A stretch of DNA of 24,928 bases. It comes from a virus. Taxonomy: Duplodnaviria > Caudoviricetes. The notes beneath the pieces were generated by a model that was not told the DNA's origin, did no database searches, and saw only the letters and a list, made by a program, of their open reading frames with translations. Both the position numbers and the translations under genes were made by a program. Shown here one piece after another: positions 13,047-24,928 of the stretch; the first letter of the stretch is position 1, and every line of letters starts with the position of its first letter. The stretch covers positions 1 through 24,928 of IMG/VR virus record IMGVR_UViG_3300025848_000176, one strand, 5' to 3'.

Positions 13047-13058
13047 GCATTATGTTTT

Positions 13059-13086
13059 TTTATTCAAAATAACTTTATATATTTGT
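13059..13086 (+). promoter_or_regulatory. Conserved 28-bp phage promoter, copy 1
   Basis: TTTATTCAAA-ATAACTTT-ATATATTTGT. Contains the Bacteroidota -7 element TAnnTTTG (13078-13085) and is repeated at 18622 and 21561. Confidence 0.75.
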
Positions 13087-13128
13087 TTAAAGTTTAAAAC
13101 TAATAACTAACATTTAAAATAAAACGAC

Positions 13129-18613: not shown

Positions 18614-18621
18614 TATTTTTT

Positions 18622-18649
18622 TTTATTCAAATTAATTTTATATATTTGT
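18622..18649 (+). promoter_or_regulatory. Conserved 28-bp phage promoter, copy 2
   Basis: TTTATTCAAA-TTAATTTT-ATATATTTGT, upstream of the recombination genes. Confidence 0.75.
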
Positions 18650-18678
18650 AAATAATTAATAACTAAAACAAAACAATT

Positions 18679-19074
18679 ATGGAAAATTTAATTCAATTTT
18701 TAGACTTTAGTAAAAGTCGTTTTTCAGGAAAAGCAGGACTTGGAGAAAGTGAATTTTCGGTTTACTATTCAAACCTAAACCAAAACAAAAACTACTGCGT
18801 GACATTTGGGAAAAAATGTAAAGAAGCAAAACAATTTATAAAAGTTGGTTATTTTGCTAACTTTATTGTTTTTCAATTTTTTGACCAAATGGAAAAAGGA
18901 TGCATAAAAGGGCATTTATCAGGGAAAGATAAAACTTGCGTTACATTTACGTCAAAAGATTTGGTTGAATTTATTTTAAATAAATTTGGCGAAAAAGTTG
19001 AAGAGAAAACAAAAAAACGTTTTGTTTATCAGTATGAAAAAAGCGGAGAATATTTAATTGTAAAAATTAACTAA
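18679..19074 (+). CDS. Hypothetical protein
   Basis: 131-aa ORF following promoter copy 2. Confidence 0.7.
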   Translation: MENLIQFLDFSKSRFSGKAGLGESEFSVYYSNLNQNKNYCVTFGKKCKEAKQFIKVGYFANFIVFQFFDQMEKGCIKGHLSGKDKTCVTFTSKDLVEFILNKFGEKVEEKTKKRFVYQYEKSGEYLIVKIN

Positions 19075-21518: not shown

Positions 21519-21560
21519 GTTAATAAATCTTAATGAAAAATATTTTTATAAACATTGTAG

Positions 21561-21588
21561 TTTATTCAAAATTAATTTATATATTTGT
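21561..21588 (+). promoter_or_regulatory. Conserved 28-bp phage promoter, copy 3
   Basis: TTTATTCAAA-ATTAATTT-ATATATTTGT, with a TTG at 21555-21557. Confidence 0.75.
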
Positions 21589-21620
21589 GTATAGTTATTA
21601 ACAATTAAAATAAAAAGGTT

Positions 21621-22552: not shown

Positions 22553-22854
22553 AAGTAGAACTACACGATTACAACATAGGATCACAATCAGGAGATGCAA
22601 CGGTATTGGTTTATGATAATCCAACAGATTTAAATAGCGTTGTTTTCGACGGCACTGTAAATTTTGAATTTAGCGTGGACAAGTACGAAACAGGGGATGG
22701 ATATTTAACACCTATTGAAAATTGGATGGATGTTGAGATTACGGATATCGAATTTTTTGATACTGAAAACCGCAGAATTAAGCCGAAATACGAGATTAAG
22801 GAAGCAATAGAGTATAATTTAATTGAAGAAATAAAAGATAAGGAAAATGAGTAA
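22549..22854 (+). CDS. Hypothetical acidic protein
   Basis: 101-aa translationally coupled ORF. Confidence 0.7.
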   Translation: MKVELHDYNIGSQSGDATVLVYDNPTDLNSVVFDGTVNFEFSVDKYETGDGYLTPIENWMDVEITDIEFFDTENRRIKPKYEIKEAIEYNLIEEIKDKENE

Positions 22855-23197
22855 AGAAGAAAAAGACAATATCACACGTTTAAGCGCATTATGTGCTATA
22901 ACTAGCCTTTATATTAAAGGGTGTAAAAAAACGATACAGGAAGCAAATATACAAGTATTGAAGCAACAGTATAAGTACGACCAGTTAAGCATTCCAAACA
23001 AAAAAGTAATTGATAAGCGAATTCAGGATGCAATGAAAAATTTAAACCTTACAATGGATACAACTACGATAGTTTTAGGTAGGATTGAAAAAAGTATGCG
23101 AAATACGTTAACAGATGAAGTAACAGACGCTTTAATCGACAAACTCGATGCGGTGCTTGATAGTGTTGATTTGGAGGGGGTGTTGAAGAAGAAATAA
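22847..23197 (+). CDS. Hypothetical protein
   Basis: 116-aa translationally coupled ORF. Confidence 0.7.
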   Translation: MSKEEKDNITRLSALCAITSLYIKGCKKTIQEANIQVLKQQYKYDQLSIPNKKVIDKRIQDAMKNLNLTMDTTTIVLGRIEKSMRNTLTDEVTDALIDKLDAVLDSVDLEGVLKKK

Positions 23198-23393
23198 CGA
23201 AGTAAATTAAAAAGATTAGATATGATAAAGCTAAAAACAGAGGTTAATAAAAGTGCGATAATGAAACAATTACGCAAAGAAGCAACTGAAATGTACGATG
23301 CTGCATACGAAGGTGAATATGCAATTGAACAATTTCTATACGGAGCAGAAAGGCTTTTTAATTTATTGCGTTTACCACGTGTTAGCGGTAGTT
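23196..23393. repeat. attC-like site A (degenerate left end, large coding loop)
   Basis: AACGAAGTAAATTAAAAAG (23196-23214) matches the reverse complement of CTTTTTAATTTATTGCGTT (23354-23372) at 17/19 positions, followed by GTTAGCGGTAGTT (23381-23393). Confidence 0.5.
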
Positions 23394-23569
23394 TATCGAT
23401 TGAACAACTTGAAAAAGCTGATATGTGGTATTGTCTACATAAGAATCATGTAAATAAGTTGTACCACTTAGCGGAAAACTCTTTACCACCAACACTTAAT
23501 GAAGATAAAAACAACCCCTCACTTTGGAAAGCAGGACATTGGAAGTGGTACTTAGACAATTACCGCTAA
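23222..23569 (+). CDS. Hypothetical protein spanning the site A/cassette 1 junction
   Basis: 115 aa. Codon 54 is the GTT at 23381 (…LRLPR-VSGS…) and the stop TAA lies inside CGCTAAC. Confidence 0.7.
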   Translation: MIKLKTEVNKSAIMKQLRKEATEMYDAAYEGEYAIEQFLYGAERLFNLLRLPRVSGSLSIEQLEKADMWYCLHKNHVNKLYHLAENSLPPTLNEDKNNPSLWKAGHWKWYLDNYR

Positions 23570-23700
23570 CGTTGACAATAAGAATGTATGGGAATTAGAA
23601 GCAGTAACCTATCCACATACACCTAACTAAATTAAAGGTAAAACTGCACAGTTTGGTACTAACACCCATATATTTTTTATTGTGTGTTATAGCTAGTTAA
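23558..23700. repeat. attC-like site B
   Basis: AATTACCGCTAAC (23558-23570), arm CAATAAGAATGTATGGG (23576-23592) pairing imperfectly with CCCATATATTTTTTATTG (23665-23682), then GTTATAGC (23686-23693). Confidence 0.65.
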
Positions 23701-23710
23701 TTTTTATGTT

Positions 23711-23911
23711 ATGAAACTTTATACTGAAGAACAATTATTTGATATTTGTCAATCTGTATCAGAAAAAATGTGTGCTAATTCTTTACCACGAGAAAGTGTG
23801 ATTGATAAATGTATGTATTACGGACACTCTAAAATTGAAATAGATATTGATACAATACAGAAGTTAATGGAAGATGATGATGTTGATGTTATAAAGGTTG
23901 CTGTCGTTTAA
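23711..23911 (+). CDS. Hypothetical protein, cargo of cassette 2
   Basis: 66-aa ORF bracketed by GTTATAGCTAGTTAA (23686-23700) and TTAATTGGCTATAAC (23908-23922). Confidence 0.7.
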   Translation: MKLYTEEQLFDICQSVSEKMCANSLPRESVIDKCMYYGHSKIEIDIDTIQKLMEDDDVDVIKVAVV

Positions 23912-23914
23912 TTG

Positions 23915-23996
23915 GCTATAACGTATGGTGCTTTGCTTCAGTTGTGCCTATGCGGTGCGTATGTTCGGCACAATTGAGCAAAACACTTGTTATAGC
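23915..23996. repeat. attC-like site C
   Basis: GCTATAAC (23915-23922) and GTTATAGC (23989-23996) are perfectly complementary. Inner arms GTGCTTTGCTTCAGTTGTGCC (23928-23948) and GGCACAATTGAGCAAAACAC (23967-23986) pair with one extra base. Confidence 0.7.
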
Positions 23997-24022
23997 ACGT
24001 TGTTTAATTAAAAAAATATAAT

Positions 24023-24913
24023 ATGAGAATAGAAGAAAATGGTAAAATGATTACAGATTGGTTAAAAAAAAACGGTAATCCTGCAATTGAAAAACAAGTT
24101 GAAAGAGAATTAGAAAATATGTTTAAAAATAAAATATTTAATGAAAATTGTTTAGAAACAATGAATAGAATTCCTGATGATTTCATTGACTTGACAGTTA
24201 CTTCGCCACCATACGACAATTTAAGAACTTACAATGGGTATAGCTTTGACTTTGAAAGTATAGCAAAAGAACTTTATAGAGTAACAAAACAAGGTGGTGT
24301 AGTTGTTTGGATTGTTGGTGATTCAACTATTAAAGGAAGTGAAACAGGAACAAGTTTTAAACAAGCATTGTTTTTTATGGAATGTGGCTTTAATTTACAT
24401 GACACTATGATTTGGATAAAACCAGACCCAATACCATTGACACATAATAGATATGAACAATCTTTTGAATATATGTTTGTGTTAAGTAAAGGCAAACCTA
24501 AAACTTTTAATCCTATAAAAGTAAAAACAAAATATGGTGGTAAAGTAGAAAATATGAAAAATTGGAGTAGTAAAGATAAAAGCCAAGCAAAAAGAATTAG
24601 AGATGAAGATATAATTAGAAAAGAATTTAGAATAGATTATAATAATTGGAATATAAGTGTTAATGATGGTGTTAAAGTAAAACATCCTGCAAAATTCCCA
24701 GAAGGATTATGTGAAAGACATATATTATCTTGGTCTAATGAAAATGATTTAGTTTATGATTGCTTTATGGGAAGTGGTACAGTAGCAAAAATGAGTATTT
24801 TAAATAAACGTAATTGGATAGGTAGTGAAATATCTTTTGAATATTGCGAGATTATTAATGAACGAATAAAAAAAACGTTGGAAGAAAAAAGAAAAGAAAA
24901 AGATTTAACGTAG
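24023..24913 (+). CDS. DNA amino-methyltransferase (N4-C/N6-A), beta class
   Basis: Motif IV TSPPY precedes HPAKFP and motif I DCFMGSGT, followed by IGSEIS.EYC. This is the beta-group motif order. Confidence 0.92.
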   Translation: MRIEENGKMITDWLKKNGNPAIEKQVERELENMFKNKIFNENCLETMNRIPDDFIDLTVTSPPYDNLRTYNGYSFDFESIAKELYRVTKQGGVVVWIVGDSTIKGSETGTSFKQALFFMECGFNLHDTMIWIKPDPIPLTHNRYEQSFEYMFVLSKGKPKTFNPIKVKTKYGGKVENMKNWSSKDKSQAKRIRDEDIIRKEFRIDYNNWNISVNDGVKVKHPAKFPEGLCERHILSWSNENDLVYDCFMGSGTVAKMSILNKRNWIGSEISFEYCEIINERIKKTLEEKRKEKDLT

Positions 24914-24928
24914 AAAACTCTATTCGGA

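What the first reader, a model, noticed from the sequence alone, without database searches (positions are those of the whole stretch)
23196..23570. A gene starts inside the hairpin loop and is fused in frame to the next cassette
Seen: the 19-bp inverted repeat of site A encloses the ATG at 23222 and about 44 codons. The frame runs through the right arm (LFNLLRLPR), reads the GTT at 23381 as codon 54 (VSGS), and stops in the TAAC of cassette 1. Inference: the site supplies a start and an N-terminal segment to whichever cassette follows, so cassette exchange would generate chimeric proteins, unlike classical self-contained cassettes.
Basis: partly seen in the sequence, partly recalled or inferred. 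Interest (0 to 1): 0.72.

Follow-up and report, generated by a model that had tools for sequence, protein, structure and literature searches.

The report
Phage hairpin swaps protein halves
A small gene of a freshwater phage starts inside a folded, integron-like DNA site and reads through the site's GTT foot, and related phages carry its front and back halves with many other partners joined at that same codon, so these sites likely act as swap points that build new small proteins, although the usual mobile unit is the whole gene.

Summary
The anatomy is confirmed: ATG 23222 lies in the loop of a 17/19 inverted repeat, GTT 23381 is codon 54, and the stop is the TAA of TAAC. The halves reassort: 28 head and 31 body hits share only this protein, giving 18 tail families and at least 8 head families.

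Sibling phages show the empty site and a one-unit insertion. The inserted unit is hairpin plus downstream body, so site A is this gene's own attC-like site and routine exchange moves whole genes. Swaps at GTT are a second, frequent event, and three reading phases occur. This copy of site A has lost about 14 nt of its left arm and is probably locked.

Matching hairpins form arrays in Bacteroidota genomes beside a Xer-like recombinase that scores below the integron-integrase cut-off. Genes there face the canonical way; phage genes are inverted. The head also occurs as a roughly 52-residue protein without a tail. Recombinase activity and translation are untested. This scan noted the same system before on other DNA.

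The parts
22847..23197 (+). Backbone gene (116 aa, no family); its TAA stop is the left border of the cassette array
   Evidence: in empty siblings this TAA is followed directly by the attI-like site
23195..23384 (.). Site A: attC-like hairpin, here missing about 14 nt of the outer left arm; remnant arms 23196-23214 and 23354-23372; right foot GTT 23381
23222..23380 (+). Head: codons 1-53, in the loop and right arm of site A; the family also occurs as a tail-less protein of about 52 aa
23381..23570 (+). Body 1: start-less coding piece (codons 54-115 and stop) with complementary ends
23222..23569 (+). Fused 115-aa ORF; no Pfam or PHROG family
23567..23689 (.). Site B: hairpin (GTT 23686) with no long in-frame loop ORF; travels with body 2
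23686..23922 (+). Body 2 with its own ATG (ORF 23711-23911, 66 aa)
23919..23992 (.). Site C: short hairpin (GTT 23989); best match in the window to the chromosomal right-arm profile
23989..24928 (+). Body 3: DNA methyltransferase (ORF 24023-24913); in the overlapping contig the attI-like site follows about 24 nt beyond the window end

Best explanation
The 115-codon gene is a mosaic of a hairpin-borne head and a start-less body joined at the GTT foot of an attC-like site, within an integron-like phage array whose inserted unit is hairpin plus downstream body, and a host Xer-like recombinase acting in trans likely moves whole genes at the left foot (AA|C) and likely swaps heads and bodies at the right foot. 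Shown by sequence comparison: the empty site, the insertion unit, the position of the breakpoints, reassortment of the halves, phase matching between head and body, and the inverted gene orientation in phages. Inferred: the coding strand folds and is cut at AA|C as a canonical bottom strand is; the opposite strand is also used often, because these sites lack the canonical same-arm extrahelical bases and the host enzyme appears about 40 residues shorter where integron integrases have their extra domain; selection keeps the in-phase fusions. The copy in this window has lost its outer left arm and is probably fixed.
For: Empty site in L027, L028 and L068; arrays that begin with a hairpin and end with a body in L018, L019, L020, L021, L029 and L030. 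L019 equals L020 (1463 of 1464 nt) plus one hairpin-and-body unit of 517 nt next to the attI-like site. Runs X6 and X8 hold exactly hairpin B plus body 2 (23559-23924) with other flanks. Linkage: of 13 near-identical hairpin pairs 0 share the upstream neighbour and 3 the downstream body; of 25 pairs with the same body start 4 share the hairpin in front; of 23 pairs with the same body end 0 share the hairpin behind. Window versus sibling L006: the identical block is 23379-23571 only; contigs of X12, X14 and X15 also join at 23379. 28 head hits fall into 18 tail families with V at the junction in 27; 26 of 31 body hits keep the junction, with at least 8 head families. Long hairpins whose body is open from GTT have a loop ATG in the same phase in 29 of 33 cases against 3 of 66 in the other phases. 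Head pN/pS is 0-0.06 among close copies and 0.29-0.38 to L002; body 0.03-0.31. No PF00589 match in 5 phage records, 3 of them complete. A phage-derived hairpin pattern hits about 1100 genome stretches, nearly all of the 80 titles listed being Bacteroidota; 7 distinct places have a tyrosine recombinase, all at the AAC-foot end of the matched hairpin, and 2 of 2 homologues fetched by protein search lie beside arrays. Gene orientation inverted/canonical: 56/6 in viral loci, 18/74 in genome loci.
Against: No recombination or translation was measured. In canonical integrons the other strand recombines about 1000-10,000 times less often (PMC5027507, passages), so frequent GTT exchange needs relaxed strand choice, which is untested. 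Only 11 of 126 genome loci (7 places) showed the recombinase, and 1 of 5 genomes had no homologue at E 1e-40. Sites A and B match the chromosomal profile poorly (right arm of A rank 34 of 543; left arm of B rank 115 of 544). The simple frame-bias test was borderline (19 versus 8, p = 0.052). Pair counts are not independent and are dominated by one body family. The phage encodes Sak, exonuclease and NinG, which could also exchange pieces. 15 of 112 head relatives have a long tail without V54; 4 of 31 body hits lack the junction and 1 had no anchor. pN/pS to the distant copy L003 is 0.68-0.79.
Confidence: 0.62

Rival explanations
1. Whole cassettes move by site-specific recombination, but head and body swaps are made by the phage's Sak annealing protein using the short shared sequence around GTT and similar hairpin arms.
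For: Sak, exonuclease, SSB and NinG genes lie in the window; no tyrosine recombinase in 5 phage records; hairpin arms share a loose consensus.
Against: Shared sequence at the swap is 2 nt left of GTT against L006 and 6 nt right of it against L015-L017, short for homology-driven annealing (own knowledge). Three more runs break at the same base.
Confidence: 0.2
2. Swaps happen, but the fusions are by-products: the head is a complete small protein, and tails are tolerated read-through or borrow a start codon without gaining a joint function.
For: 42 of 112 head relatives lack V54 and end within 12 residues of that position. Body 1 accepts heads of about 11-53 aa with no likeness. The single-sequence model has a low-confidence stretch at 51-58 (mean pLDDT 55). 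This reading is compatible with the best explanation and concerns function only.
Against: 48 of 52 relatives with V54 have tails of 20 or more residues; phase matching 29 of 33; both halves are under purifying selection. Some short hits may be cut by contig ends.
Confidence: 0.3
3. One reading: the site stays in place and donates its start to whichever cassette is inserted behind it, like attI-encoded ORF-11.
For: At the first array position the sibling L006 and this phage both have a loop start fused to body 1; the head has many bodies.
Against: Empty siblings have no hairpin at this position. The first hairpin differs among siblings, the same head sits mid-array elsewhere, and new units enter at the far end of the array with their own hairpin.
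Confidence: 0.1
4. Body 1 is translated from its internal Met (MWYC, 23423) and the upstream frame is chance.
For: The Met is present in 22 of 30 hits; the search excluded proteins under 63 aa, so internal-start forms could not appear.
Against: 8 of 30 hits lack that Met; residues upstream of it are conserved; the head shows 4-6 synonymous against 0-1 non-synonymous changes among close copies.
Confidence: 0.05

Closest known systems
Integron gene cassettes and phage CALINs (Qi et al. 2023, PMC9892861)
   Same: Arrays of hairpin-bounded small genes including a DNA methyltransferase, AAC/GTT feet, crossover at AA|C, no integrase in the phage; Qi et al. list a Polaribacter phage and show IntI1 recombining phage attC sites.
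   Different: Genes lie on the strand opposite to the canonical one (56 of 62 classified bodies), so the start codon rather than the stop sits in the hairpin. Spacer asymmetry is 2-4 nt, bulges are staggered or absent, and heads and bodies reassort. 'Start codon' and 'in-frame' occur 0 times in that paper's main text; its supplement was not read.
attI1 ORF-11/ORF-18 and fused cassettes (review PMC8876359, passages)
   Same: A reading frame that starts in a recombination site and crosses the crossover point; protein fusions between cassettes; short ORFs inside attC sites.
   Different: There the ORF is in a fixed attI and works mainly by translational coupling, or fusions follow loss of attC. 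Here a 53-codon conserved domain sits in a mobile hairpin and joins start-less bodies.
Synthetic attC sites embedded in coding sequence (Nivina et al. 2020, PMC7439510, passages)
   Same: An attC hairpin can be translated as part of a protein and was proposed as a tool for module shuffling.
   Different: Engineered; the present case is natural, with population evidence of reassortment but no assay.
Integron integrases (TIGR02249) and XerC/D recombinases
   Same: The host enzymes have PF00589, score on PF13495, and have NF040815 or TIGR02249 as best NCBIfam model.
   Different: All 6 score below the TIGR02249 cut-off (99-213 bits against 265) and match it in two pieces, which by lengths suggests the IntI-specific domain is missing.

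Membership tests
attC site / integron cassette | Hairpin with AAC and GTT feet, complementary R boxes | tested here: met
   Intact copies pair AAC with GTT in the comparative structure; body ends 10 of 11 complementary. The window's own site A fails: pairing probability 0 (0.14-0.39 in intact copies).
attC site / integron cassette | Crossover between A and C of AAC | tested here: met
   Empty versus filled sites and the 517-nt extra unit
attC site / integron cassette | Extrahelical bases on one arm and canonical spacer lengths | tested here: not met
   Site A family has one bulge on each arm; spacer difference mostly 2-4 nt, +4 in 238 of 317 genome-locus sites. The canonical 5/6-nt spacer is recalled.
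attC site / integron cassette | Recombining strand folds more stably | tested here: inconclusive
   Coding strand folds better in 80 of 94, but the detector rewarded G-T pairs on that strand
attC site / integron cassette | Gene on the top strand, upstream of its attC | tested here: not met
   Viral loci 56 inverted, 6 canonical, 6 unclear; genome loci 74 canonical, 18 inverted, 18 unclear
attC site / integron cassette | Self-contained mobile unit of one gene plus one site | tested here: met
   Unit is hairpin plus downstream body
Complete integron | Adjacent IntI with its specific domain | tested here: not met
   No PF00589 in 5 phage records; host enzymes below the TIGR02249 cut-off, 6 of 6
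Complete integron | attI site at the insertion end | tested here: inconclusive
   A conserved non-cassette site reads TAAC-N6-GTTA on the minus strand and is where the extra unit sits; binding untested
Complete integron | Integrase-catalysed recombination of folded single strands | not testable with these tools
   Needs a recombination assay
CALIN | Two or more attC sites called by the IntegronFinder or HattCI models, no integrase | not testable with these tools
   Those models are not on hand; Rfam gave no match at gathering score in 8 sources

The most novel reading that the evidence does not exclude
Bacteroidota and their phages share an integron-like system run by a Xer-like recombinase with relaxed strand choice. 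Phages use it in mirror orientation, so hairpins become DNA-level exon borders with phases. Free-standing small genes are captured into hairpin loops, their own leader and C-terminal codons forming the arms, and are then spliced to start-less bodies. This would be a natural combinatorial protein-fusion device and a visible route by which genes gain or exchange attC sites.
Probability: 0.35. Interest if true: 0.85.

Novelty: new variant of a known kind. Interest (0 to 1): 0.62.

Why it matters
How cassettes arise and acquire attC sites is named as an open question (PMC8618304, passage), and a survey with IntegronFinder 2.0 reported only one complete integron in Bacteroidetes proper (PMC9024848, passage). 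This locus offers a testable set: empty and filled phage sites, a one-unit insertion, intact and truncated copies of one hairpin, a candidate host enzyme, and a gene whose halves reassort at one codon. If the enzyme uses both strands, attC swapping and protein fusion are one reaction. It would also help explain why many small Bacteroidota phage proteins look like orphans, and would be a natural version of the engineered attC-in-protein idea.

Tried and rejected
Function of either half: no PHROG, Pfam, Atlas or phage-collection match; the single-sequence AlphaFold model is too poor to search (pLDDT 55). Rfam: nothing at gathering score and one chance match. Body 1 in named genomes: none. Sigma-70 and terminator scan: at chance level. 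Helicase search for a named relative: best listed hits about 30% identical. A single fixed reading frame across sites: rejected. L004 was a chance hit. Four doubtful sites (L004, L036, L047, L055:3858) were dropped before the frame, folding and phase counts (98 to 94); the linkage count dropped only the first three and added 6 head-A sites by hand. Three contigs with phage-like orientation (L111, L115, L153) were left out of the profile but kept. The right-arm rank of site B was not read because I gave a wrong coordinate. L-box cleavage as the cause of the truncated arm: considered and not supported, since it would cut the other arm (own reasoning). Paper searches listed no paper describing start codons inside phage attC loops with reassorting halves; the library lacks most subscription journals.

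Full report
Setting. The window is a 24.9-kb phage contig, 33% GC, with endolysin, DnaB, NinG, Sak, exonuclease, SSB and DNA methyltransferase genes and no integrase hit among 38 ORFs scanned. Runs that hold the locus are mostly freshwater, runoff and drinking-water metagenomes. A Bacteroidota host is inferred from where related hairpins occur.

ORF 23222-23569 starts in the loop of a 17/19 inverted repeat (23196-23214 / 23354-23372), reads GTT 23381 as codon 54 and stops in TAAC. The repeat is unique in the window and absent from 20 shuffles, and the arms covary in 6 copies (6 of 26 pairs change on both sides). The 19 bp are a remnant: L015, L016, L017 and a contig of run X18 have 13-14 more nt of left arm, which place AAC opposite GTT. 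In the window that pairing has probability 0, against 0.14-0.39 in intact copies. Contigs from a separate 2023 study bridge the junctions.

The halves reassort. Searches with residues 1-57 and 54-115 gave 28 and 31 proteins with only the query in common (candidates limited to 63-202 aa). The 28 fall into 18 tail families with V at the junction in 27. Of the 31, 26 keep a V/F-S/I-x-S/I junction and fall into at least 8 head families; 4 lack it and 1 had no anchor. At DNA level the sibling L006 carries the same body behind the same backbone gene with another hairpin in front and another behind, and the identical block is 23379-23571. Contigs of X12, X14 and X15 join at 23379 too. Near-identical heads in L015, L016 and L017 carry two other bodies. 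A profile search found 112 head relatives at 50% clustering, none with the body 1 motif. Of these, 52 have V at position 54 (48 with tails of 20 or more residues) and 60 do not (42 end within 12 residues, 15 have long tails). The head is therefore also a tail-less protein of about 52 aa; some short hits may be contig-cut.

The frame is probably translated. Close head copies differ by 4-6 synonymous and 0-1 non-synonymous changes (one pair: 0 and 1); pN/pS is 0.29-0.38 to L002 but 0.68-0.79 to the distant L003. The body gives 0.03-0.31. The internal Met is kept in 22 of 30 hits. No expression data bear on it.

What actually moves. Thirteen loci with the backbone gene were fetched. L027 and L028, and L068 from a later scan, are empty: the backbone TAA runs directly into a conserved site. 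L018 (this phage), L019, L020, L021, L029 and L030 have, between that TAA and the site, arrays that begin with a hairpin and end with a body. L022 is cut within the first hairpin, L024 ends at the stop, L023 is a fusion, and L025 and L026 lack the site. L019 is L020 plus one 517-nt unit of hairpin and body next to the conserved site, and runs X6 and X8 hold hairpin B plus body 2 with other flanks. The unit is thus hairpin plus downstream body, cut at AA|C on the coding strand. Read on the minus strand this is integron geometry: an attI-like site (TAAC-N6-GTTA), then body, then attC, with the gene on the strand opposite to the usual one. Site A is cassette 1's own attC-like site, and insertion or excision moves an intact gene.

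Exchange at GTT is still common. Among 101 site contexts, near-identical hairpins share the upstream neighbour in 0 of 13 pairs and the downstream body in 3 of 13; the same body start has the same hairpin in front in 4 of 25 pairs; the same body end has the same hairpin behind in 0 of 23 (pairs are not independent). Linkage to the downstream body exists but is weak. The frame is not universal: among 50 long non-anchor hairpins a loop ATG crosses GTT for 25 or more codons in frame 0, 1 and 2 in 20, 9 and 5 cases (19 versus 8, p = 0.052). What is strong is phase matching: of 67 sites with a complete body, 33 long hairpins have a body open from GTT (phases 22, 8, 3), and a loop ATG lies in the same phase in 29 of 33 against 3 of 66 in the other phases. 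Sites B and C are followed by bodies with their own ATG.

Candidate enzyme. Five phage records, three of them complete, have no PF00589 match. A degenerate pattern from phage hairpins matched about 1100 genome stretches; 126 loci came back, 80 with long flanks, and nearly all of the 80 titles listed are Bacteroidota. A motif scan found a tyrosine recombinase in 11 loci at 7 places, each beyond the AAC-foot end of the matched hairpin, 6 pointing away and 1 pointing towards it. Two homologues fetched by protein search both lie beside arrays, one in each geometry; 1 of 5 genomes had no match at E 1e-40. All 6 proteins scanned match TIGR02249 in two pieces below its cut-off; by lengths about 40 residues are missing where IntI has its extra domain (inference; the domain is named in PMC4792948, passages). 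With a strand-symmetric detector, genes are canonical in 74 and inverted in 18 genome-locus bodies (18 unclear), but inverted in 56 and canonical in 6 viral bodies (6 unclear). Site C ranks first of 543 GTT sites in the window against a chromosomal profile; site A ranks 34th, so its link to the host family rests on structure and array context, not on sequence.

Mechanism. Most likely (0.62) the host recombinase acts in trans on the folded coding strand at AA|C to insert whole genes next to the attI-like site, and on the opposite strand at the other foot to exchange heads and bodies, with selection keeping in-phase products. Canonical attC sites use the other strand about 1000-10,000 times less, and removing extrahelical bases raises that use (PMC5027507, passages). 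These sites lack the canonical bulge pattern, which fits relaxed choice but does not show it. The window's arrangement could arise from an L006-like ancestor by insertion of a head-A cassette and loss of the piece between two GTT feet, plus deletion of the left arm (inference). Sak-mediated exchange (0.2) and functionless tails (0.3, compatible with the main reading) remain open.

What is known. Phage-borne attC clusters without integrase, including a Polaribacter phage, are in print (PMC9892861: parts 1 and 3 of 7 and passages; supplement not read, and it lists 17 CALINs that may include such phages). ORFs across attI, short ORFs in attC and fused cassettes are reviewed in PMC8876359 (passages). 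Coding attC sites were engineered in PMC7439510 (passages). IntegronFinder 2.0 reported one complete integron in Bacteroidetes proper (PMC9024848, passages). Cassette formation is named as open in PMC8618304 (passage). PMC13616975 (passages) was not relevant. Nine searches listed no description of the inverted, loop-coding form. Earlier notes of this scan describe the same system on other genomes; they are leads and were not counted as evidence.

Verdict. The feature is real. It works like an integron cassette array but fails three membership tests (bulge and spacer pattern, gene orientation, IntI). New variant of a known kind; interest 0.62. The fusion claim stands at the population level, but as a second reaction and not as the routine one, and this particular site is probably inactive.

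Noticed in passing
L023:2131-2766: The backbone gene has lost its stop and reads in frame through a hairpin right arm and GTT into a body (about 212 aa): a backbone-to-cassette fusion at the same valine codon.
   Followed up: partly
window 13051-13116, 18614-18679, 21553-21618: Three copies of a 66-nt AT-rich repeat before gene blocks, each with a TATATTTG motif like the Bacteroidetes promoter consensus (recalled); the third may drive the block that holds the array.
   Followed up: no
window 24911-24913 versus L001:4690-4720: The methyltransferase stops at TAG here, while the overlapping contig has CAG and reads 10 codons further; a one-base difference near the contig end.
   Followed up: no
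window 23989 onward; L018: The two ends of the methyltransferase body are not complementary in this phage, whereas the methyltransferase body of L021 has matching ends (9 of 10), suggesting recombination within the gene.
   Followed up: no
L087, L091, L117, L118, L121, L126, L131, L202, L203: Hairpin arrays in bacterial genomes, mostly Bacteroidota, beside a Xer-like recombinase that scores below the integron-integrase cut-off in the six scanned; the recombinase points away from or towards the array.
   Followed up: partly
L111, L115, L153: Genome-collection contigs with phage-like (inverted) cassette orientation; L111 is filed under an archaeal bin and may be a mis-binned phage.
   Followed up: no
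L017: A 21-kb metagenome contig with 19 detected hairpins plus a head-A site within 8 kb, mixing phases 0, 1 and 2 and short non-coding sites.
   Followed up: partly
proteins: 28 of 112 head relatives carry a CxxC motif after residue 50, so many tails look like small zinc-binding pieces.
   Followed up: no
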